Source of the DNA: a virus
Taxonomy: Duplodnaviria; Heunggongvirae; Uroviricota; Caudoviricetes
IMG/VR virus record: IMGVR_UViG_2703719389_000008
Length of the DNA: 9,301 nt
Reading direction: 5' to 3' (one strand)
Part shown: positions 1 through 9,120 of the stretch, in pieces
How the letters are laid out: each line of letters starts with the position of its first letter
Position numbering within the stretch: the first letter of the stretch is position 1
Program-made: the position numbers and the translations under genes
The notes under the pieces: model-generated
The model's database searches: none
Told to the model about the DNA's origin: nothing
Seen by the model: only the letters and a program-made list of their open reading frames with translations

Positions 1-537
1 TTACGCATGCTTTTCGGTTCCGGCTCCACCAGTACCCGGGTATTGTGGAATACCAAAAAAAAAAATTGCGCCGGTACCATAACCACCAGCCCGAGTGTCA
101 ATCATCCATGCTGACAGGTTTTGATGAGCAAGTTGCCCGAGTGATTCGGATGTCTGGTCACGCAGCTGGTTGTCGCAGTGCCAGCACAACACCATTGCGC
201 CGGTACCATAACGGTGAATGACGGTTTCGCTGTGATGATAATCGCCGTGTGGCCACTGGCAGGATTTAATATGGCACAACAGCCAGTCAGACAATGCACC
301 AGCACCACCAGCAGCACGAATTACCCGTGCGTTACTGAAAAACGGCAGCAATGTTTTGTCTTCCACCAGCGGCTGGCGAACGGCAGGAACGACCCCGGAC
401 GGCAGATTACGCATGCTTTTCGGTTCCGGCTCCACCAGTACCCGGGTATTGTGGAATACCGGCATGGATTCACGGCCCGGCTTAACGACCACCATCCCGA
501 GTTCCGGTACCAGAACAGGTCGAAGTAATACCCGCAC
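1..537 (-). CDS. Hypothetical prophage protein (178 aa) with a Cys/His cluster resembling an HNH/NinG-like zinc-binding nuclease motif; 3' end is mosaic
   Basis: GTG start at 537 preceded by GGAGGT Shine-Dalgarno 4 nt upstream, immediately after the stop of the upstream 92-aa gene (translational coupling). Motif CHIKSC-x7-DYHH-x15-LCWHCDNQ. Last 54 nt (1..54) duplicate 407..460 in another frame, followed by an A11 run (55..65). TAA stop at 1..3. Confidence 0.45.
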   Translation of the reverse strand: MRVLLRPVLVPELGMVVVKPGRESMPVFHNTRVLVEPEPKSMRNLPSGVVPAVRQPLVEDKTLLPFFSNARVIRAAGGAGALSDWLLCHIKSCQWPHGDYHHSETVIHRYGTGAMVLCWHCDNQLRDQTSESLGQLAHQNLSAWMIDTRAGGYGTGAIFFFGIPQYPGTGGAGTEKHA

Positions 538-538
538 G

Positions 539-817
539 TTACCTCCAGATGCGTTGCTGGAATGTACGGGACGGACGCGGTGGGCGTTCGGAGTTAGGCA
601 ATCTGACTGAGATTATCCAGTGACGGTAGTCGAGACTAAGAGCTTTCTTAACCTCGTATCCGCGCCTGCGGTAACACTGAATTATCCATTCCGCCTGCTC
701 TTCAGTGCATGGAGGGTGCTGGAACCATTCAGACTTGAATGCGTGAGAATACCGCTCGTGCGTGCAGGCAAGAACGGGCGAATTATCAGAATTGTAATAT
801 TTTACGTTGCGTGCCAT
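539..817 (-). CDS. Hypothetical small prophage protein (92 aa), copy A of a duplicated gene
   Basis: ATG at 817 with GGAGA RBS. Paralog of 1601..1879: C-terminal 60 aa nearly identical, N-terminus diverged at protein level but keeping the frame, which supports this strand being coding. Confidence 0.5.
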   Translation of the reverse strand: MARNVKYYNSDNSPVLACTHERYSHAFKSEWFQHPPCTEEQAEWIIQCYRRRGYEVKKALSLDYRHWIISVRLPNSERPPRPSRTFQQRIWR

Positions 818-883
818 CGGTTTTCTCCGGTGGCACGGTGTTACTCAGCGGGAGTTCAGCCCCGCGCAAGATTGTAGATGAGT

Positions 884-1135
884 TTATTCTTCTGCAAAAG
901 CTGAAAAGCCTGCTTTTATTCCAATCTCTTTCAGTGCCTGTAATGAAGTGACAAACTCACCTTCGCGCAAGATAAATCCGTCTGTCACTCGACCATCCAC
1001 AAAATTAATTAACGCAGCCCCATTCTTTCGCAAACACATAATGCGGTAATGACTAACAAGATTTCCATTTTCAACGCACACAGCATAGAGGCCATCTTCA
1101 CAAAAAATTTTACGCAGTTCTTCGATGTTCATCAT
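884..1135 (-). CDS. Hypothetical small prophage protein (83 aa)
   Basis: ATG-ATG start at 1135 with GGAAGGA RBS 5 nt upstream; non-repetitive, balanced composition; lies between the two repeat units. Size and position next to hok recall Rem of Qin but this is not verified. Confidence 0.5.
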   Translation of the reverse strand: MMNIEELRKIFCEDGLYAVCVENGNLVSHYRIMCLRKNGAALINFVDGRVTDGFILREGEFVTSLQALKEIGIKAGFSAFAEE

Positions 1136-1200
1136 CAGAATCCTTCCGGATAATTAGCTCTCCCCTTTAAGGGACCATCCCTCTTATCCCTGCGCGCTAC

Positions 1201-1599
1201 TTAAGTATTTTTGATTCTATTCCGGCACTGGTTGTCGCAGTGCCAGCACAACACCATTGCGCCGGTACCATAACGGTGAATGACGGTTTCGCTGTGATGA
1301 TAATCGCCGTGTGGCCACTGGCAGGATTTAATATGGCGCAACAGCCAGTCAGACAATGCACCAGCACCACCAGCAGCACGAATCACCCGTGCGTTACTGA
1401 AAAACGGCAGCAATGTTTTGTCTTCCACCAGCGGCTGGCGAACGGCAGGAACGACCCCGGACGGCAGATTACGCATGCTTTTCGGTTCCGGCTCCACCAG
1501 TACCCGGGTATTGTGGAATACCGGCATGGATTCACGGCCCGGCTTAACGATCACCAGCCCGAGTTCCGGTACCAGAACAGGTCGAAGTAATACCCGCAC
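1201..1599 (-). CDS. 3'-truncated paralog (132 aa) of the 1..537 HNH/NinG-like gene; probable gene remnant
   Basis: Same GTG start and Shine-Dalgarno context as copy A. Near-identical to copy A through the CWHCDNQ motif, then ends after 7 more codons exactly where the repeat homology stops (about 1228). Confidence 0.4.
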   Translation of the reverse strand: MRVLLRPVLVPELGLVIVKPGRESMPVFHNTRVLVEPEPKSMRNLPSGVVPAVRQPLVEDKTLLPFFSNARVIRAAGGAGALSDWLLRHIKSCQWPHGDYHHSETVIHRYGTGAMVLCWHCDNQCRNRIKNT

Positions 1600-1600
1600 G

Positions 1601-1879
1601 TTACCTCCAGATGCGTTGCTGGAATGTGCGGGACGGACGCGGTGGGCGTTCGGAGTAAGGGAGTCTGACTGAGATTATCCAGTGACGATAGTCGAGACTA
1701 AGAGCTTTCTTAACCTCGTATCCACGCCTGCGGTAACACTGAATTATCCATTCAGCCTGCTCTTCAGTGCATGGAGGATGCTGGAACCAGTCTGATGTGA
1801 ATGCGTGAAAACGCCGTCCGCACCTGCTGGCAAAGACAGCAGAATCATTAGAATTGTGTAATTTGGTATCGTGCGCCAT
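1601..1879 (-). CDS. Hypothetical small prophage protein (92 aa), copy B of the duplicated gene
   Basis: Start chosen at the internal ATG (1879) that aligns with the copy A start (MAHDTKL vs MARNVKY). The longer 1601..2008 ORF in the track would read through a rho-independent terminator. Confidence 0.5.
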   Translation of the reverse strand: MAHDTKLHNSNDSAVFASRCGRRFHAFTSDWFQHPPCTEEQAEWIIQCYRRRGYEVKKALSLDYRHWIISVRLPYSERPPRPSRTFQQRIWR

Positions 1880-1950
1880 CGGTTGTCTCTGCTGGCGCAG
1901 CAGGTGCCAGTTGTTCAGGCTGGCGTGCGAATTGTAAACCAGAATGCCAG

Positions 1951-1978
1951 GAAAAAACAAAACCCGCCGAAGCGGGTT
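1951..1978 (-). terminator. Rho-independent terminator downstream of hok
   Basis: On the minus strand: AACCCGC-TTCG-GCGGGTT (7-bp stem, UUCG tetraloop) followed by TTGTTTTTTCC, about 70 nt after the hok stop. Confidence 0.65.
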
Positions 1979-2046
1979 AAGTGCGGGTGCATTGAGGATG
2001 CCTGACACATCAGAGGTGGCGAGGGATTTCTCCCCCGCCTGGTCTC

Positions 2047-2202
2047 TTACTCCTCAGGTTCGTAAGCTGTGAAGACAGCGACCTCCGTCTGGCCGGTTCG
2101 GATTCGTACCTCGCAGAGGTCTTTCCTCGTTACCAGTGTCGTCACTATGACGGTTAAACAGATGACGATCAGGACGATTAACATCGCCTTTTGCTGCTTC
2201 AT
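2047..2202 (-). CDS. hokD: Hok/Gef-family small membrane toxin (51 aa)
   Basis: Translation MKQQKAMLIVLIVICLTVIVTTLVTRKDLCEVRIRTGQTEVAVFTAYEPEE: Hok-family hydrophobic helix plus conserved RKxLCE and AYE motifs, close to my recollection of HokD/RelF. AAGGAG RBS 9 nt upstream of ATG 2202. The in-frame upstream ATG at 2259 is treated as leader. Confidence 0.85.
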   Translation of the reverse strand: MKQQKAMLIVLIVICLTVIVTTLVTRKDLCEVRIRTGQTEVAVFTAYEPEE

Positions 2203-2479
2203 AGCCTGCTTCTCCTTGCCTTTCGGCACGTAAGAGGCTAACCTAGATTTGCCGTTCATAGATTGAGCCTCAGATTAATGTTAAGCGTCTTGCAGGACGC
2301 GTAATGTTAACTGGGGCTTTTCTCTATCTGCCTTTGGTGTTCATGCCTGAGACAGATAGCCTCAAGCACCCGCAGCCATTCTACTTAACTCCCGTCACCT
2401 CGCCAATATGAAATCAATCAGAAAGGCGAACCATAAGAGCAATAGCAAGACAATAAGGCCCGCATGGTCGTACAAAGAC

Positions 2480-5278
2480 TCAGGCACCGTGACATTTTTT
2501 GTACTTTATTCCCGAGCCACAGGGGCATTGTTCATTCCGGCCGACCGCACCAAAAACTTCAGTTAATTTAGTCTTTGCTGCTTTATGGGCAAGCTGTACG
2601 ATGTAATTTGATTGATTTTGGATTTCTTGACGCTGTACACCTGTGAGGCCTTCGATATAGGGAGCAAGGCGCTGCATTTCGACATCAGCTGCTTTATGCT
2701 GACCCGATAGTGCTAATATGACTGCGTATTGGCTTCGAACCTGAATCAGTCGATGTACTAGACCTGCCTCATTGACAACCGGCAGGACATGTTGCTCCAT
2801 GACTTCCTTGGCACCGTCGTAATCCTTTATGGCAACAAACTCATCCGCCAGATCTTGGCCCACCCTGACCATGGATTCCGGGGCCATGGCCAGATTGTAG
2901 AACTTCATCGAATGAATACGCAGTAATGGTGACAGTTTTCCCTGCGCATCACGAATTCTGGCCAGCAACTCCAGAGCATCAGCCATATGTTTAAAGTGTT
3001 CCTGCATATTTTCGGAATGATTAATAGTTTTCCATAATGCGTCGGCGTTTTTTCCTATGACATCAGCAGGTGTGATACCAAATAAAGAATAGTACCCTTG
3101 TATAACATTACAGCTTAATGTTTCAGCATCCTTGAGTTTTTTTAATCTCCAGAGTGCAATGGCATGGTTGTAGTCAAAGATGCGTTTATGTTCTTCATCT
3201 GGGAGTTGGGGGCGGACTTCCTGTGCCAGCTTTTGAACTTCTCGTGCATCATTGCTTTCTGCCGAAAATAACATTCGTTTCATTGCATAGGCCATCTCTT
3301 CTTGATAGCCGAACTTGTGCTCCGCAAGTAAAGCTCCCATGATGTTTAACCTCTGAGCAATGTGGTCGGATATTCCGTCTTTAAGCTCAACGAAAACAAG
3401 GCCATCCAATGCCCAGAATTTATGAACAGGTCCCAATAAGTCCGATGTTGCAGCACGCTCCAAGCTTGCAAGAATGTCGACCGTCACGCCCATCTCATAA
3501 AACATTTCTTGGCCTGAGAGTTCGATCAACGTCGTGACATCATTGAGCTTAATATAAAGTTGAGTCAACAACGATAACCGTTTTGTATTGCGGGTATTAT
3601 GAAGACTTTCAACTAAAAGGTCTTTCAGCGCTAGTAGCGCTTTGTTCGATATACCCTGATCCATCAGTTCCAGATGTTGCAGTCCTAGCCCCCTGACAGC
3701 ATCATGTACCTTCAGGGTCTGGTTTCCATAAATTTCAATAGTGCCAGTAGCGCGCATTTTCCTAATTAAAGAAGCAGCACTGCTTGGTGAAATGTTCAGC
3801 GAATTGATTAGGAGCGTAGAAATCTCTTCGCGACTCAGCCCTACGTCAGAGAGACTGAACAATGCCAGCGCGCTCTGAAGTAGTGATTCAAATCCCTGAA
3901 ATACACGTGACAGAATAATTTCTTGGGCGGTTTCCGCAGTATGGGTTTGTTGCTGGAGTTCAGCACACAGAGCATCGACATTACGCTCATAATCAGAAAC
4001 GGCGATTTTTGCGGCGCTCTCTACATACAGGGGAAGACCACCAGTGTAAGCCCGTAGCTGCTCGTATCCCATAGCGGTGGCAAATCCTCCGATATCGTTT
4101 ACAACGACAGCTACCGTATCGAGATTCCATCCCTGCAGGCCCTCGCGCTGTAGCCCCGTCATGACCTCCAGTTCGCGAACGTTTTCGTGAGGCTGGCACA
4201 ACAGCACAAAACGAATATGTGTAGTTGCATTCAGAACATCCAGTAGATTTTCCGCAGGTACACGATGGGCGTTATCCAGAACCAGCACCAAGGTGGTACC
4301 CTGCTCTTTCAGGTAGGTATCAAAACTCCTAAGAGCCTCAAAACCACTGGCACCGGGGAGCAAAATCCTGCGCAAACCGTCTTGGTCACGGGCTGTAAAT
4401 CTAGCAGCCATCTCGCGCACCAGCGTACTGGCCAGAGCTGGACCGGGAAGATCACCGGTGTCGTAATAAGCACAAAGTGCAGTGGAGTGTAATGCGGCCT
4501 GTGCGGCCCAAGCTGTCTTGCCTGCACCTGAGAGTCCACAAAGGATACGGATCCGCTCACCAGATGTGAGAGAAGGTTCTTCGTTCTGTGGGCGGTACAG
4601 TGCTGGTGGTGCAGGAAAGTCCTGTAGCTGAACGATCAACTGTTCAAATAGTTCAGTAAGTTCTTCCGTGAAAAACGTATGTTGTCCATTGGTATCGCCT
4701 CCGGTGGCGGCAAGCTGAACCAATCCTGCTAACTTCCAAATCAAGGATTCTGGGGACAATAGTGAAAATTTCAGCTTTTCTGCTTCTGCGATACACCATG
4801 TGGCCGCATCAGCCAGAGTACTCCATGCGGGCGGAAGTGCCGGGTGACGTCCAGCTGTCGACTGGGGCCAGACAATAAGAACATCAGAAGGAAGCTTTTT
4901 ATCGTCAATCATCTTCTGAAGCAGCGGTCCAGGCGCCTGGTTTACAATAATCACAAAAGAAGCCACCCCTTCGCGGTTTGCCGAAGTATGCTCATTTCTG
5001 AGCTTTACAAATCGCTCCAGAGCCCCCGACACATCGTTGGGCATAATAGGTTTTGAACGGGTTTTAACCTGAATGTAGAGACGTTCCTGTTTGGATTTCA
5101 GCTCAATATCCTCATCAAGCTCGACAGTTACTGAGTCCATAGCTGCCCTCTGCGCCAAAAGTAAGCAGCCTACAGCGTAAAGATGCTGGTAAAGGAACCC
5201 CCGGTGTACCGCTTCGATACGCACCAACTGCACAGGATCCAGTACGTCCAGATTTTGTTTGTTTTCACTTCCCCACAT
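2480..5278 (-). CDS. Large multidomain protein (932 aa): PD-(D/E)xK-like nuclease motif, STAND (NB-ARC-like) P-loop NTPase, TPR-like helical repeats, C-terminal SEC-C zinc ribbon; candidate NLR-like antiviral sensor
   Basis: Uninterrupted 2.8-kb ORF with AAGGAA RBS 6 nt upstream of ATG 5278. Walker A GLSGAGKT (nt 4514..4537, verified by translation), Walker B LVLVLDN (4271..4291, verified), GGLPL (about 4028..4042), VHD (aa 524-526), N-terminal D57...Q70-V-K72 (about 5063..5122), C-terminal CPCGSGIKYKKCH (2489..2527). Confidence 0.85.
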   Translation of the reverse strand: MWGSENKQNLDVLDPVQLVRIEAVHRGFLYQHLYAVGCLLLAQRAAMDSVTVELDEDIELKSKQERLYIQVKTRSKPIMPNDVSGALERFVKLRNEHTSANREGVASFVIIVNQAPGPLLQKMIDDKKLPSDVLIVWPQSTAGRHPALPPAWSTLADAATWCIAEAEKLKFSLLSPESLIWKLAGLVQLAATGGDTNGQHTFFTEELTELFEQLIVQLQDFPAPPALYRPQNEEPSLTSGERIRILCGLSGAGKTAWAAQAALHSTALCAYYDTGDLPGPALASTLVREMAARFTARDQDGLRRILLPGASGFEALRSFDTYLKEQGTTLVLVLDNAHRVPAENLLDVLNATTHIRFVLLCQPHENVRELEVMTGLQREGLQGWNLDTVAVVVNDIGGFATAMGYEQLRAYTGGLPLYVESAAKIAVSDYERNVDALCAELQQQTHTAETAQEIILSRVFQGFESLLQSALALFSLSDVGLSREEISTLLINSLNISPSSAASLIRKMRATGTIEIYGNQTLKVHDAVRGLGLQHLELMDQGISNKALLALKDLLVESLHNTRNTKRLSLLTQLYIKLNDVTTLIELSGQEMFYEMGVTVDILASLERAATSDLLGPVHKFWALDGLVFVELKDGISDHIAQRLNIMGALLAEHKFGYQEEMAYAMKRMLFSAESNDAREVQKLAQEVRPQLPDEEHKRIFDYNHAIALWRLKKLKDAETLSCNVIQGYYSLFGITPADVIGKNADALWKTINHSENMQEHFKHMADALELLARIRDAQGKLSPLLRIHSMKFYNLAMAPESMVRVGQDLADEFVAIKDYDGAKEVMEQHVLPVVNEAGLVHRLIQVRSQYAVILALSGQHKAADVEMQRLAPYIEGLTGVQRQEIQNQSNYIVQLAHKAAKTKLTEVFGAVGRNEQCPCGSGIKYKKCHGA

Positions 5279-7110: not shown

Positions 7111-7536
7111 TCAATGTACTGCCACAGCATTTCCTGCCGGGCCACCACGGTTCATCTGATTGAAACCGGCGATTGCCACTGCGACAAAATCATCAGCGTC
7201 TCTCACCAGTCGCTCCCGCGTCTCCACCAACTCCCGAAAATAAGCTGAACTGTGGCTGCGCATTCTGGCCACCAGCAAAGGTGGCATTGCCTTTTCGATC
7301 GCTGGTAACAACGCCTGAATTTTTTCAACTGCATCAGGGGTGTCTTTCTCTACCCAGCGGAAAATTTTCTGGGTATTGCGAGCCAGGGCTTCCGGATGGC
7401 TGTCGTCATACAGTTCAGGAAACGTCATACCCAACTCAAAATAAGCCTGGGTTATTCCAGCTGCTGGAACTTTTTCGCCATCAGGACGCGCCCAGGCATT
7501 CATCGCCATGCGGATGTGTTCATGCTTGATTTTCAT
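7111..7536 (-). CDS. ydaT: YdaT-family protein (141 aa), CII-like position in the early-right operon
   Basis: N-terminus MKIKHEHI... characteristic of the Rac YdaT family; start overlaps the ydaS stop by 17 nt. Confidence 0.8.
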   Translation of the reverse strand: MKIKHEHIRMAMNAWARPDGEKVPAAGITQAYFELGMTFPELYDDSHPEALARNTQKIFRWVEKDTPDAVEKIQALLPAIEKAMPPLLVARMRSHSSAYFRELVETRERLVRDADDFVAVAIAGFNQMNRGGPAGNAVAVH

Positions 7537-7801
7537 GAATCAAGCTCCTAGTAAGTGGTTGTGTTAACGTTTTGGTATCTTCCAGCTCGGGCCAAATATT
7601 CATCCAATCAAAAGGCCTTAGTTGCTGACGTGTAACTTCACCATTACTGGCTCGCTCAATAAGGACACATAACGATGCCCCTAACATTTGACCTTTACTC
7701 AATGCCTTTCTTAGATAACCGATGCTAGTACCACACTCACATGCAAACATACGCTGTTCATCTGACGAAAGAGAATTGAGAAATATTCTTAATTCTTCCA
7801 T
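7520..7801 (-). CDS. ydaS: Cro-like HTH regulator, YdaS family (93 aa)
   Basis: HTH segment GTSIGYLRKALSKGQ and conserved E(V)TRQQLRPFDW block; AAGGAG RBS 5 nt upstream of ATG 7801; divergent from the repressor gene. Confidence 0.75.
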   Translation of the reverse strand: MEELRIFLNSLSSDEQRMFACECGTSIGYLRKALSKGQMLGASLCVLIERASNGEVTRQQLRPFDWMNIWPELEDTKTLTQPLTRSLIHENQA

Positions 7802-7826
7802 AGCTACTCCTTAGTAAACACAGCAA

Positions 7827-7895
7827 AGAATACCCACAGGTAAACAAAAGTCAATACCCTTGGGTTGTTTACCTTGCGGTAATCGCATCTATTAT
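7827..7895. promoter_or_regulatory. Divergent immunity promoters with operator repeats
   Basis: Minus strand: -35 TTGACT (7849..7854) and -10 TATTCT (7827..7832), 16-bp spacer, driving ydaS. Plus strand: -35 TTGTTT (7865..7870) and -10 TATTAT (7890..7895) ending 6 nt before ATG 7902. 10-bp inverted repeat AGGTAAACAA (7838..7847) / TTGTTTACCT (7865..7874), third GTAAACA at 7815..7821, plus TACCC-N2-GGGT(A/T) half-palindromes at 7831..7842 and 7855..7866. Confidence 0.5.
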
Positions 7896-7901
7896 TTACC
7901 T

Positions 7902-8321
7902 ATGGACAAATATGAATTTAGACGACAACAACTCATCAAAATTCGTGATGAGAAATGCGATGGTAAAGCGGTTAACGTGGCCAGAAAGATCGGTCGCGAG
8001 CCTTCTTATGTATCAAGAATGTTGTACCCAGAGGGGAAAAAAGGAAAAAAACGGATCGCTGATGATATGGTGGAGATTATAGAAGAGTCCTTTGGGTTAC
8101 CCCGGGGATGGATGGATGGTATCGTTTCATCATCAACGAACACAGCCTCCAATTATGAAACAAGGGTTCTAACGCCACGACAACGTATTTTTTTAGATCT
8201 CTTAGACGAACTGCCAGAAAGTGAAGCGGATAACTTATTAAAAACTCTTGAAGAGAAAAAACAGTATTACAATATGATCTACGAAGAAATCCGTAAAAAG
8301 AAAGCACAAAACGCATCATAA
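7902..8321 (+). CDS. CI-like prophage repressor (RacR/DicA-type HTH protein, 139 aa)
   Basis: HTH segment GKAVNVARKIGREPSYVSRML and C-terminal LDLLDELPESEADNLL, similar in layout to DicA/RacR-type repressors. No Shine-Dalgarno before ATG 7902 and a -10 just upstream, consistent with a leaderless cI-like transcript. The track's TTG start at 7860 is rejected. Confidence 0.7.
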   Translation: MDKYEFRRQQLIKIRDEKCDGKAVNVARKIGREPSYVSRMLYPEGKKGKKRIADDMVEIIEESFGLPRGWMDGIVSSSTNTASNYETRVLTPRQRIFLDLLDELPESEADNLLKTLEEKKQYYNMIYEEIRKKKAQNAS

Positions 8322-8363
8322 CTCACCAAACAACCAGTCACCAGTTAAGACACATCAAAAAAT

Positions 8364-8403
8364 TACCCATGGGTATTTACTTTTTGGATACCCATGGGTA
8401 TCC
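8364..8403. promoter_or_regulatory. Pair of perfect palindromes upstream of ydfA, candidate operator
   Basis: TACCCATGGGTA at 8364..8375 and GGATACCCATGGGTATCC at 8386..8403, centres 25 bp apart. Confidence 0.4.
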
Positions 8404-8586
8404 TTCCTTTCATACCAACCCACCCCACCCCACAGAATGCAGGGCAATACTTCGAGTTACCAGGCAGTGGTCAGGGGTTAAGTAGCCAGCCCGAGGCGTA
8501 AGAACATGACGGCAGGGTTCAACTTTAATAACTATGCAGCAGGTTTTTGTTCCGCTACCCCGGCGTTAAGGGGAAATGAGGTCAAC

Positions 8587-8742
8587 ATGGATACTATCGA
8601 TCTTGGCAACAACGAATCTCTGGTGTACGGCGTGTTTCCCAACCAGGACGGTACGTTCACCGCGATGACGTATACCAAAAGCAAAACGTTTAAAACCGAA
8701 AATGGTGCCCGTCGCTGGCTGGAAAGAAACTCAGGTGAGTGA
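8587..8742 (+). CDS. ydfA: YdfA-like small protein (51 aa)
   Basis: Translation MDTIDLGNNESLVYGVFPNQDGTFTAMTYTKSKTFKTENGARRWLERNSGE matches K-12 Qin YdfA in length (51 aa); sequence agreement is from memory. GAGGT RBS before ATG 8587; the track's 8506 start is an upstream in-frame extension. Confidence 0.75.
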   Translation: MDTIDLGNNESLVYGVFPNQDGTFTAMTYTKSKTFKTENGARRWLERNSGE

Positions 8743-8743
8743 T

Positions 8744-8872
8744 ATGGATTTCGACACAATCATGGAAAAGGCTTACGAAGAATACTTCGAAGGTCTTGCC
8801 GAAGGCGAAGAAGCTCTCAGCTTCAACGAATTTAAACAGGCGCTTTCCAGTTCGGCAAAATCTAACGGCTGA
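8744..8872 (+). CDS. ydfB: YdfB-like small protein (42 aa)
   Basis: Translation MDFDTIMEKAYEEYFEGLAEGEEALSFNEFKQALSSSAKSNG. ATG 8744 lies 1 nt after the ydfA stop with AGGTGAG RBS. Below the ORF-track size cutoff. Matches YdfB in size and position. Confidence 0.7.
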   Translation: MDFDTIMEKAYEEYFEGLAEGEEALSFNEFKQALSSSAKSNG

Positions 8873-8901
8873 TAAGCGAAACAGCACCGCGAGGAATCAG
8901 T

Positions 8902-9120
8902 ATGCAGAAACGAGAACCCGTCATCATCGCGCCAGACTATACCGATGATGAACTTTATGAGTGGATGCACCAGAAAATTAATGCAGCGCAGGATCTGAAA
9001 TGGGCCAATGAAGCCAGAGCTAAGCAGGCTGAAAATCTGTCCGCTCTGGAGCAGGATATCACCAATCTGGAAAAAGCAGCGGCATTAAGCATTGCCAGAA
9101 TGATTACATACCCGCGTTAG
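8902..9120 (+). CDS. ydfC: YdfC-like protein (72 aa)
   Basis: GAGGAA RBS before ATG 8902; size and position after ydfA/ydfB match Qin ydfC. Confidence 0.75.
   Translation: MQKREPVIIAPDYTDDELYEWMHQKINAAQDLKWANEARAKQAENLSALEQDITNLEKAAALSIARMITYPR

What the first reader, a model, noticed from the sequence alone, without database searches (positions are those of the whole stretch)
7815..7901. Compact divergent immunity switch with interdigitated operator repeats and a leaderless repressor start
The 100-bp interval between ydaS and the repressor holds a 10-bp inverted repeat (AGGTAAACAA/TTGTTTACCT) flanking the -35 of the ydaS promoter. There is a third GTAAACA copy and two half-palindromes of a TACCC-N2-GGGTA family. 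The repressor ATG has no Shine-Dalgarno and sits 6 nt after a TATTAT -10, as for lambda cI from PRM.
Basis: partly seen in the sequence, partly recalled or inferred. Interest (0 to 1): 0.45.

Follow-up and report, generated by a model that had tools for sequence, protein, structure and literature searches.

The report
Lambda-type prophage immunity switch operators
The 100-bp gap between the two divergent regulator genes is an ordinary lambda-style prophage on/off switch with three repressor-binding palindromes (TACC-N4-GGTA) and a repressor mRNA that probably starts at its own AUG; the same layout recurs in relatives across Proteobacteria.

Summary
The operators are three palindromes, TACC-N4-GGTA: OR1 7831-7842, OR2 7855-7866 and OR3 7870-7881. 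The 10-bp inverted repeat is OR1's right half-site plus flank and OR3's left half-site plus flank. Its outer bases are not conserved in relatives.

In 36 relatives from gamma- and beta-proteobacteria, including phages mEp043 and CharmingMan, the three sites sit at fixed offsets from a conserved MDKYE start. A YdaS-type Cro gene lies alongside in most of them. Two perfect TACCCATGGGTA copies lie downstream of the repressor gene (8364-8375, 8389-8400). They form an OL/PL built like PR.

The leaderless start is well supported. There is no Shine-Dalgarno sequence. A -10-like hexamer lies 6-7 nt before the ATG in 31 of 45 loci. The distant homologue PaaR2 of prophage CP-933P, shown experimentally to be leaderless, has the same geometry.

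The repressor pairs this DNA-binding domain with a DicA/PaaR2-like helical C-terminus instead of an S24 autoprotease. It is a new member of a known kind, of modest interest.

The parts
7520..7801 (-). cro-like gene (YdaS type, 93 aa), first gene of the rightward (PR) operon
   Evidence: ORF list. PDB 8c7k/8co2 'phage antirepressor protein Cro', E 1.5e-10. phrog_35, E 2.4e-23. Pfam YdaS_toxin hit is below the curated cut-off, 25.9 against 30 bits. Homologous Cro partners sit next to the repressor homologue in about 30 related loci.
7807..7812 (-). Shine-Dalgarno sequence AAGGAG of ydaS, 5 nt before its ATG
   Evidence: Read from the sequence.
7827..7854 (-). PR: -35 TTGACT (7854-7849), 16-nt spacer, -10 TATTCT (7832-7827). 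Predicted start near 7819-7821.
   Evidence: Promoter scan. In the 36-locus alignment the TCAA of the -35 and the A that gives T(-7) of the -10 are nearly invariant.
7831..7842 (.). OR1, TACCCACAGGTA, overlapping the PR spacer and -10.
   Evidence: Exact match. The site is present at about -73 from the ATG in most related loci.
7855..7866 (.). OR2, TACCCTTGGGTT, with an imperfect right half as in most relatives. It abuts the PR -35 and is centred 41.5 nt before the repressor ATG.
   Evidence: The majority E. coli allele is TACCCACAGGTT.
7870..7881 (.). OR3, TACCTTGCGGTA, overlapping the PRM -35 and spacer and centred 26.5 nt before the ATG.
   Evidence: The offset is identical in phage mEp043.
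7868..7895 (+). PRM: -35 TTTACC (7868-7873), 16-nt spacer, -10 TATTAT (7890-7895)
   Evidence: Promoter scan. TTTACC is invariant in the family. A -10-like hexamer lies 6-7 nt before the ATG in 31 of the 45 loci examined (37 loci had a qualifying hexamer within 3-11 nt).
7902..8321 (+). Repressor gene (139 aa). The ATG at 7902 is the predicted +1 of a leaderless mRNA. The N-terminal HTH domain spans residues 1 to about 72, the linker 76-87, and the DicA/PaaR2-like helical hairpin 92-138.
   Evidence: RefSeq uses the same start. Full-length match to phrog_5736 beginning at residue 1. MDKYE is nearly invariant as the N-terminus. AlphaFold model, pLDDT 86.7. Homology to PaaR2 (E 1e-8) and to the DicA C-terminal domain (E 1e-7).
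7805..7820 (.). It lies over the ydaS Shine-Dalgarno sequence and 5' UTR.
   Evidence: Kept in Salmonella L131. An extra half-site left of OR1 occurs in 6 of 37 loci against 1.2 expected. Low confidence.
7892..7908 (.). Candidate weak auxiliary site: TTATTTACCT (9/10 copy of the right arm) running into TACCTATGGACA, over the PRM start and ATG.
   Evidence: Not conserved outside the E. coli/Salmonella lineage. Low confidence.
8364..8375 (.). OL2, perfect palindrome TACCCATGGGTA, directly upstream of the PL -35
   Evidence: Pairs of sites 25-26 bp apart lie downstream of the repressor in mEp043, CharmingMan, L131, L132 and L135.
8389..8400 (.). OL1, perfect palindrome TACCCATGGGTA, over the PL spacer and -10
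   Evidence: Half-sites are kept and central bases vary among 80 IMG/VR copies.
8376..8404 (+). Putative PL: -35 TTTACT (8376-8381), 17-nt spacer, -10 TATCCT (8399-8404). Same build as PR.
   Evidence: Read from the sequence. Below the scan threshold. mEp043 has an annotated putative PL at the equivalent place.
7111..7536 (-). cII-like gene ydaT (141 aa)
   Evidence: Pfam YdaT_toxin, 39.6 bits, above the cut-off. phrog_163 'CII-like activator', E 3.4e-45.
7526..7543 (.). YdaT operator OM, TTGATTTTCATGAATCAA, at the ydaS/ydaT junction (PRE analogue)
   Evidence: Exact match to TTGATT-N6-AATCAA, 0.08 expected. This repeat was footprinted at the same position in CP-933P (PMC9986795).

Best explanation
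The interval is the OR region of a lambda-type lysis/lysogeny switch in an E. coli lambdoid prophage.

Three palindromic operators (core TACC-N4-GGTA, extended TTTACC-N4-GGTAAA) lie between divergent promoters.
- OR1 (7831-7842) covers the spacer and -10 of PR, which drives ydaS(cro)-ydaT(cII)-replication genes.
- OR2 (7855-7866) abuts the PR -35. It is centred 41.5 nt upstream of the repressor start, the position from which lambda CI activates PRM.
- OR3 (7870-7881) contains the PRM -35.

Inferred mechanism:
- Dimers of the 139-aa repressor fill OR1 and OR2 (24 bp apart) to shut PR and probably stimulate PRM.
- At high concentration the repressor fills OR3 and shuts PRM.
- The YdaS-type Cro uses the same sites with the opposite preference.
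- A second pair of sites (8364-8375, 8389-8400) controls a PL built like PR. The helical C-terminal domain may allow OR-OL looping over about 530 bp.
- PRM (TTTACC-16-TATTAT) starts at the A of ATG 7902, so the repressor mRNA is leaderless.
- YdaT bound at 7526-7543 provides the PRE-type establishment input.

Shown here: the sites, their conservation, their geometry, and the protein homologies.
Inferred: protein binding, order of filling, activation of PRM, looping, and the transcription start points.
For: Site statistics. Exact TACC-N4-GGTA occurs 4 times against 0.06 expected, and only in the OR and OL clusters. In the interval there are 3 sites with at most 1 mismatch against 0.1 expected.

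Phylogenetic footprint. The 42 genome loci and two phages were found through the repressor's N-terminal domain. Most carry the three sites at about -73, -48 and -33 from the ATG. In the 36-locus alignment only these features are conserved: the half-sites, TCAA of the PR -35, T(-7) of the PR -10, the PRM -10, and ATGGAyAAATAyGA.

E. coli population. In 80 copies the substitutions fall mostly in the central N4 of the sites rather than in the half-sites. The main exception is a common OR3 GGTA to AGTA change.

OL. Downstream pairs of sites 25-26 bp apart recur whatever the distance from the repressor gene.

Leaderless start.
- There is no Shine-Dalgarno sequence.
- A -10-like hexamer lies 6 or 7 nt upstream of the ATG in 31 of the 45 loci examined; 37 loci had a qualifying hexamer within 3-11 nt.
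- MDKYE is nearly invariant as the N-terminus.
- RefSeq and phrog_5736 use the same start.
- PaaR2 has GATAAT-N6-ATG. It was shown to be leaderless by 5' RACE and N-terminal sequencing (PMC8630535).

Proteins.
- The repressor is distantly homologous to PaaR2. Its C-terminal domain is homologous to that of DicA.
- The AlphaFold model shows an HTH N-terminal domain and a helical hairpin. The nearest folds are the SPC32H repressor and XRE / lambda cI N-terminal domains.
- YdaS matches solved Cro structures. It co-occurs with the repressor domain in about 30 loci.
- The YdaT operator is an exact match.
Against: - No binding, footprint or transcript data exist for this element or, as far as I could find, for any member of the MDKYE family.
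- PL scores below the promoter-scan threshold.
- The two OL palindromes also score as terminator-like hairpins.
- OR2 and OR3 are only 15 bp apart centre to centre. This is unlike lambda (23-24 bp), so the lambda logic of cooperativity and PRM activation may not transfer.
- That Cro uses the same sites is inferred only from the absence of any other conserved motif.
- This prophage copy looks defective: the RefSeq twin has a frameshifted integrase and a frameshifted DUF977 gene.
Confidence: 0.8

Rival explanations
1. Two separate interdigitated operator families serve two regulators: the GTAAACA/TGTTTAC repeats (7814, 7840, 7866, 7893) serve one of them, for example YdaS, and the TACCC-N2-GGGTA palindromes serve the other.
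For: The four copies are arranged almost symmetrically about position 7856, two pointing each way and 26-27 bp apart. The 10-bp inverted repeat is rare by chance, reached by 0.65% of shuffles. CP-933P was described as having two overlapping repeat types (PMC8630535).
Against: Every GTAAAC/GTTTAC copy is continuous with a TACC or GGTA half-site or a degenerate one, so it is the extended half-site TTTACC/GGTAAA. The bases beyond it are not conserved in 36 relatives, nor in the 85%-identical Salmonella relative. No second motif co-varies with the Cro partner.
Confidence: 0.08
2. A five-site operator. Besides OR1-3, two weak sites act as auxiliary repressor or Cro sites. One is TACTCCTTAGTA(AACA) at 7805-7820, over the ydaS ribosome-binding site. 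The other is (TTATT)TACCTATGGACA at 7892-7908, over the PRM start. They would tighten repression of ydaS and add PRM autorepression. This extends the best explanation rather than replacing it.
For: Each site keeps one consensus extended half-site. Spacings to the neighbouring site are 26 and 27 bp. The left site is unchanged in Salmonella L131 although neighbouring bases differ. An extra half-site left of OR1 occurs in 6 of 37 loci against 1.2 expected. CP-933P has four spaced repeats, two of them conserved in only one half.
Against: About 0.8 sites with at most 2 mismatches are expected per interval by chance, so the two extra sites are not significant on their own. Half of the left site is the Shine-Dalgarno sequence and half of the right site is the conserved MDK codons. 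Neither position is conserved family-wide. The six loci are not independent lineages.
Confidence: 0.3
3. The two TACCCATGGGTA palindromes at 8364-8400 are the transcription terminator of the repressor gene and not an OL operator.
For: The scan reports two terminator-like hairpins there, followed by a T-rich tail TCCTTCCTTT. They lie 43-79 nt after the stop codon.
Against: The sequence is the same 12-mer family as the OR sites. Equivalent pairs occur 25-26 bp apart in relatives even when other genes separate them from the repressor gene (L004, L005, L132, L135). The arrangement copies PR: GGGTA, -35, 6-7 nt, TACC..GGGTAT. Population variants change the central bases but keep the half-sites. Both functions could coexist.
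Confidence: 0.1
4. The repressor is translated from a leadered mRNA. Either translation begins at the upstream in-frame TTG at 7860 (a 153-aa ORF), or transcription begins further upstream.
For: A longer ORF with a TTG start exists. Some gene callers extended homologues upstream. A PRE-type transcript activated by YdaT would necessarily carry a leader.
Against: The upstream extension overlaps the operators and is not conserved as protein. MDKYE is the nearly invariant N-terminus. There is no Shine-Dalgarno sequence for either start. The -10 hexamer at 6-7 nt is conserved. The homologue PaaR2 is experimentally leaderless.
Confidence: 0.04

Closest known systems
CP-933P (Sp12) PaaR2 / YdaS / YdaT switch of E. 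coli O157:H7 (PMC8630535, PMC9986795)
   Same: - Divergent repressor and ydaS-ydaT operons separated by about 100 bp (97 there, 100 here).
- A repressor with an N-terminal HTH, a DicA-like helical C-terminus and no S24 domain. It is a distant homologue: 23% identity over 90 aa, E 1e-8.
- A YdaS-type Cro.
- A closely related YdaT with the identical TTGATT-N6-AATCAA operator at the ydaS/ydaT junction.
- The same leaderless geometry, a -10 hexamer then 6 nt then ATG.
- 16-bp palindromes of the same form: TTTAGT-N4-ACTAAA there, TTTACC-N4-GGTAAA here.
- An OL/PL copy of the operators.
   Different: - Different operator half-site (TACC/GGTA against TAGT/ACTA), so presumably a different immunity specificity.
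- No paaA2-parE2 toxin-antitoxin genes after the repressor. DUF1391/ydfB/ydfC follow instead.
- A different number and spacing of sites.
- Nothing here has been tested experimentally.
Immunity region of coliphage mEp043 (NC_019706) and phage CharmingMan
   Same: - Orthologous module. The repressor DNA-binding domain is 65% identical.
- The Cro is of the same family, E 3e-35.
- OR aligns base for base, with three TACC-N4-GGTA sites, the same OR3-to-ATG offset and TAGAAT-N6-ATG.
- Two OL sites lie at an annotated putative PL.
   Different: - The mEp043 and CharmingMan repressors carry an S24 (LexA-like) autocleavage domain, 221-228 aa in all. The window repressor has a 65-aa helical domain instead.
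- mEp043 has a lambda-type CII rather than YdaT.
- I found no published operator study of mEp043.
Bacteriophage lambda OR/PRM/PR/OL
   Same: - Tripartite OR between divergent promoters.
- One site over PR and one over PRM. The middle site is about 42 nt upstream of PRM.
- Leaderless cI mRNA, with 6 nt between the -10 and the ATG.
- OL copies of the operators.
- CII/PRE input.

The lambda facts come from established knowledge and from PMC8630535.
   Different: - No sequence similarity between the repressor, Cro or CII proteins and their lambda counterparts.
- 12-16-bp sites instead of 17-bp sites.
- OR2-OR3 spacing of 15 bp instead of 23 bp.
- Two OL sites rather than three.
- No RecA-cleavable domain.
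DicA/DicC of the Qin prophage and RacR/YdaS/YdaT of the Rac prophage (E. coli K-12)
   Same: - Same position in a lambdoid prophage.
- The DicA C-terminal domain is homologous: 33% identity over 46 aa, E 1e-7.
- The left arm from about 8550 onward (ydfA/B/C) is about 98% identical to Qin.
- Rac shares YdaS/YdaT-type genes.
   Different: - The DicA DNA-binding domain and DicC are unrelated to the window proteins.
- RacR is unrelated.
- Different operators.
Repressor Rep of Salmonella phage SPC32H (PDB 5d50/5d4z), inactivated by an antirepressor
   Same: It is the best structural match to the AlphaFold model, though a weak one (E 1.4e-3). It too is a short phage repressor without an S24 domain.
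   Different: There is no detectable sequence match. No antirepressor gene or LexA box was found in this window. The fold match is marginal.

Membership tests
Lambda-type (lambdoid) immunity switch | Divergent repressor and cro genes, with a cII-like gene and replication genes downstream of cro | tested here: met
   The ORFs and their family matches show the repressor on the + strand and ydaS/cro, ydaT/cII and an O-like gene on the - strand. RefSeq context.
Lambda-type (lambdoid) immunity switch | Multiple related palindromic operators overlapping two divergent promoters | tested here: met
   Three TACC-N4-GGTA sites overlap the scanned PR and PRM. They are conserved in 36 relatives.
Lambda-type (lambdoid) immunity switch | A second operator set (OL) at the leftward early promoter | tested here: met
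   Two perfect sites at 8364-8400, and equivalent pairs in relatives. The promoter itself is only a weak consensus match.
Lambda-type (lambdoid) immunity switch | The repressor and Cro bind these operators with opposite preference and produce bistability | not testable with these tools
   Needs EMSA, footprinting and reporter assays.
Lambda-type (lambdoid) immunity switch | RecA-stimulated autocleavage of the repressor (S24 domain) | tested here: not met
   No Pfam domain. The C-terminus is a 65-aa helical hairpin. Relatives with the same DNA-binding domain do carry PF00717.
Leaderless repressor mRNA (lambda cI / paaR2 type) | No Shine-Dalgarno sequence, and a -10 hexamer placed so that +1 is the A of the ATG | tested here: met
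   TATTAT at 7890-7895, then 6 nt, then ATG at 7902, with no Shine-Dalgarno sequence. The geometry is kept in 31 of the 45 loci examined and in paaR2.
Leaderless repressor mRNA (lambda cI / paaR2 type) | The mapped 5' end of the mRNA coincides with the start codon | not testable with these tools
   Needs 5' RACE or dRNA-seq. Done only for paaR2 (PMC8630535).
CP-933P PaaR2-YdaS-YdaT module | PaaR2-like repressor, YdaS-like Cro, and YdaT with the TTGATT-N6-AATCAA operator | tested here: met
   PaaR2, E 1e-8. YdaS against 8c7k, E 1.5e-10. YdaT Pfam match above the cut-off. Exact operator.
CP-933P PaaR2-YdaS-YdaT module | Three-gene paaR2-paaA2-parE2 operon, with a toxin-antitoxin pair after the repressor | tested here: not met
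   The repressor is followed by the OL region and then DUF1391/ydfB/ydfC.
CP-933P PaaR2-YdaS-YdaT module | Operator half-site GTTTAGTAA | tested here: not met
   The half-site here is (T)TTACC.
mEp043-type immunity (MDKYE repressor domain + YdaS-type Cro + TACC-N4-GGTA operators) | Shared DNA-binding domain, shared Cro family and the three-site OR at fixed offsets | tested here: met
Rac prophage RacR-YdaS-YdaT | RacR-type repressor | tested here: not met
   BLASTP finds no similarity, E 2.3.

The most novel reading that the evidence does not exclude
The MDKYE DNA-binding domain, its YdaS-type Cro and the fixed three-site TACC-N4-GGTA operator form one ancient immunity module spread across gamma- and beta-proteobacteria. 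The module has repeatedly exchanged its C-terminal effector domain, S24 autoprotease against a DicA/PaaR2-like helical domain, without changing operator specificity.

On this reading, the widespread E. coli prophage studied here, present in about 15% of complete genomes, would be a non-SOS-cleavable version. It would confer standing immunity against homo-immune S24-type phages. It would itself be inducible only through an antirepressor or not at all. It might also carry two lineage-specific auxiliary sites over the cro ribosome-binding site and the PRM start.
Probability: 0.3. Interest if true: 0.45.

Novelty: new member of a known kind. Interest (0 to 1): 0.3.

Why it matters
The result gives a concrete operator code (TTTACC-N4-GGTAAA, three sites at OR and two at OL) for an immunity type found in 822 of 5426 complete E. 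coli genomes and in relatives from Neisseria to Xanthomonas.

I found no published operator study for this type. That makes repressor, Cro and immunity-specificity predictions testable.

It adds a large comparative set to the few known leaderless repressor genes (lambda cI, paaR2).

It also documents a case where the DNA-binding domain and operators stay fixed while the induction domain is swapped. This bears on how prophages become non-inducible.

None of this changes the general picture of lambdoid switches.

Tried and rejected
- RacR homology: none.
- DicC as the Cro homologue: no.
- PDB sequence search with the repressor: only chance-level hits.
- Pfam on the repressor: no family.
- Rfam: nothing in or near the interval, only sok at 2197-2371.
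- LexA box (CTGT-N8-ACAG): only chance-level 1-mismatch hits, none near the switch.
- Promoter scan for PL: nothing above threshold. PL was proposed by analogy with PR and with mEp043.
- Literature search for the operator motif and for mEp043 operators: nothing.
- The 80 IMG/VR loci are 99-100% identical at the protein level. They were useful only for population variation.
- The upstream TTG start at 7860 was rejected.
- A family-wide test of the two extra repeat copies was inconclusive.
- A group of Klebsiella loci (L010, L012, L014-L016) and a few distant ones (L027, L039, L041, L044, L048) lack the full three-site layout. They were left out of the alignment.
Full report
**What is there**

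The window is part of a lambdoid prophage of E. coli. Bases 7400-8400 are 100% identical to NZ_CP148374.1, and 822 of 5426 complete genomes hold at least 80% of this stretch. In the RefSeq twin the prophage lies next to mtfA and a tRNA-Ser gene, and its integrase is frameshifted.

On the minus strand lie three genes:
- a cro-like gene of the YdaS type (7801-7520);
- a cII-like ydaT gene (7536-7111);
- an O-like replication gene.

On the plus strand, starting at ATG 7902, lies a 139-aa repressor. The interval between the two start codons is 7802-7901, exactly 100 bp.

**Checking the observation**

- AGGTAAACAA lies at 7838-7847 and TTGTTTACCT at 7865-7874, forming a perfect 10-bp inverted repeat.
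- A third GTAAACA lies at 7814-7820.
- TACCCACAGGTA lies at 7831-7842 and TACCCTTGGGTT at 7855-7866.
- TATTAT lies at 7890-7895, followed by six bases and then the ATG. No Shine-Dalgarno sequence is present.

The 10-bp inverted repeat is reached by only 0.65% of dinucleotide shuffles of the interval.

One is a third palindrome inside the right arm (TACCTTGCGGTA, 7870-7881). Another is a 9/10 fourth copy of the arm (TTATTTACCT, 7892-7901). The third is a pair of perfect TACCCATGGGTA palindromes downstream of the repressor gene, at 8364-8375 and 8389-8400.

Exact TACC-N4-GGTA occurs four times in 9.3 kb against 0.06 expected, and only in these two clusters.

**What the repeats are**

The repressor has no Pfam family. 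Its first 72 or so residues are 50-85% identical to the N-terminal domain of many 221-242-aa LexA/S24-type phage repressors.

Using that domain I fetched 42 loci from one-genome-per-species contigs, spanning Enterobacterales, Aeromonas, Neisseria, Burkholderiales and Xanthomonadales. I also fetched the immunity regions of phages mEp043 and CharmingMan.

Most of these loci carry three TACC-N4-GGTA palindromes starting about 73, 48 and 33 nt before the repressor ATG. In mEp043 the region aligns base for base with the window, and the OR3-to-ATG distance is the same.

In an alignment of 36 loci the conserved columns are:
- the half-sites (extended form TTTACC / GGTAAA);
- TCAA next to OR2, which is the TTGA of the PR -35 on the other strand;
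- one invariant A left of OR1, which is T(-7) of the PR -10;
- a -10-like hexamer before the ATG;
- ATGGAyAAATAyGA.

Its outer bases (ACAA / TTG) are not conserved. They already differ in the closest diverged relative, Salmonella locus L131, whose repressor is 85% identical.

There is one operator family here, not two interdigitated ones.

Among 80 near-identical IMG/VR copies, substitutions fall mostly in the central four bases of the sites. Most copies have OR2 = TACCCACAGGTT, and about a third have OR3 GGTA changed to AGTA.

**Promoters and geometry**

The scan gives two promoters:
- PR: TTGACT (7854-7849), 16-nt spacer, TATTCT (7832-7827);
- PRM: TTTACC (7868-7873), 16-nt spacer, TATTAT (7890-7895).

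OR1 covers the PR spacer and -10. OR2 abuts the PR -35 and is centred 41.5 nt before 7902. OR3 contains the PRM -35 and is centred 26.5 nt before 7902. Centre-to-centre spacings are 24 bp and 15 bp.

The downstream pair has the same build as PR. The order is GGGTA, then TTTACT (8376-8381), then seven bases, then TACCCATGGGTA overlapping TATCCT (8399-8404). This promoter falls below the scan threshold, and the palindromes also score as terminator-like hairpins.

Equivalent pairs 25-26 bp apart occur in mEp043 (at an annotated putative PL), CharmingMan, L131, L132 and L135. In some of these loci other genes separate the pair from the repressor gene. That argues for OL/PL rather than a simple terminator.

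**Leaderless start**

Several lines of evidence support a leaderless repressor mRNA.
- There is no Shine-Dalgarno sequence.
- A7902 is the seventh base after the -10 and the only well-placed purine.
- A qualifying -10-like hexamer was found within 3-11 nt of the ATG in 37 of the 45 loci examined. In 31 of those 37 it lies 6 or 7 nt before the ATG.
- MDKYE is nearly invariant as the N-terminus.
- RefSeq and phrog_5736 use the same start.

The distant homologue PaaR2 of prophage CP-933P was shown to be leaderless by 5' RACE, N-terminal sequencing and mass spectrometry (PMC8630535). Its gene in phage Evi has GATAAT, six bases, then ATG. The transcription start in the window itself remains an inference.

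**The proteins**

The repressor is a mosaic.
- Its N-terminal domain belongs to the MDKYE family.
- Its C-terminal 50 or so residues are homologous to the C-terminus of DicA from the Qin prophage (E 1e-7), to PaaR2 (23% identity over 90 aa, E 1e-8), and to the CI of phage Tritos, which has a different DNA-binding domain.

The AlphaFold model has a mean pLDDT of 86.7. It shows a helical HTH domain, a disordered linker (residues 76-87) and a helical hairpin (residues 92-138). The best fold match, though a weak one, is the antirepressor-controlled Rep of Salmonella phage SPC32H. XRE-type domains follow, including the lambda repressor N-terminal domain.

There is no S24 domain, so RecA-dependent autocleavage is not expected. 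No LexA box was found in the window.

The YdaS-type Cro co-occurs with the repressor domain in about 30 of the loci. It matches solved 'Cro' structures 8c7k and 8co2. Because no other motif is conserved in OR, I infer that Cro uses the same sites.

**Establishment input**

TTGATTTTCATGAATCAA at 7526-7543 straddles the ydaT start codon. It matches exactly the TTGATT-N6-AATCAA repeat footprinted by YdaT at the same place in CP-933P, the PRE analogue.

**The extra copies**

TACTCCTTAGTA(AACA) at 7805-7820 and (TTATT)TACCTATGGACA at 7892-7908 each keep one consensus extended half-site. They lie 26 and 27 bp from the neighbouring operator.

Sites with at most 2 mismatches are not rare by chance: about 0.8 are expected per interval. 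Half of each site is explained by the Shine-Dalgarno sequence or by the MDK codons. Still, an extra half-site left of OR1 occurs in 6 of 37 loci against 1.2 expected, and the left site is unchanged in Salmonella. I rate auxiliary function at about 0.3.

**Comparison and verdict**

This element works like lambda OR/OL. It is a heteroimmune relative of the experimentally characterised CP-933P PaaR2-YdaS-YdaT switch, and its OR/cI/cro module is orthologous to that of phage mEp043.

It fails two CP-933P features (no paaA2-parE2 genes, a different half-site) and one lambda feature (no S24 domain). I found no paper describing this operator motif.

It is a new member of a known kind. The 'interdigitated operators' reading is replaced by three palindromic operators plus an OL pair.

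Noticed in passing
window 7526-7543: TTGATTTTCATGAATCAA is an exact copy of the YdaT (CII-like) operator OM that was footprinted in CP-933P. It straddles the ydaT start codon at the ydaS/ydaT junction and is probably the PRE analogue that drives establishment transcription of the repressor.
   Followed up: partly
window 8364-8404: Two perfect TACCCATGGGTA palindromes 25 bp apart lie downstream of the repressor gene. They are arranged around TTTACT-17-TATCCT exactly as OR2/OR1 are arranged around PR. This is a candidate OL/PL that also scores as a terminator-like hairpin.
   Followed up: yes
window 7902-8321 (residues 89-139): The repressor's C-terminal helical domain is shared with DicA (Qin), PaaR2 (CP-933P) and the CI of phage Tritos. 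It replaces the S24 autoprotease found in most relatives with the same DNA-binding domain. This is a domain swap that should remove RecA-dependent induction.
   Followed up: partly
window 2480-5278 (minus strand): A 932-aa protein has an N-terminal Cap4-type nuclease region, an AAA_22 ATPase domain and a C-terminal SEC-C zinc motif. It has a weak LmuA N-terminal match in PADLOC. It sits between hokD and DUF977 like a moron and is a candidate anti-phage defence gene.
   Followed up: partly
window 1-2300: Direct repeats are present. Positions 166-465 and 1228-1527 are 99% identical with a spacing of 1062. Positions 1-54, 407-460 and 1469-1522 are identical. The DUF968 region looks duplicated or rearranged, whereas the RefSeq twin annotates a single DUF968 gene. 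It could be a real tandem duplication or an assembly artefact.
   Followed up: no
window 2047-2371 (minus strand): A hokD toxin gene with its sok antisense RNA (Rfam RF01794, 110 bits, 2197-2371).
   Followed up: no
window about 8550-9120 against K-12 Qin (L049): From about 8550 onward the sequence (ydfA-like DUF1391, ydfB, ydfC) is about 98% identical to the Qin prophage of K-12. The immunity module to its left is unrelated to dicC-dicA. This is a sharp mosaic junction just past the OL region.
   Followed up: partly
IMG/VR loci L051-L130 (OR region equivalent to window 7799-7910): Within E. coli, polymorphisms in OR fall mostly in the central four bases of the three operators. The window's OR2 centre (CTTG) is a minority allele and most copies have CACA. 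About a third of copies carry OR3 GGTA changed to AGTA. This may tune affinity or specificity.
   Followed up: partly
loci L010, L012, L014-L016 (Klebsiella): These repressor homologues keep sites at -73 and, in most, at -33. They lack the middle site and the adjacent cro gene. This is a different arrangement and was not analysed.
   Followed up: no
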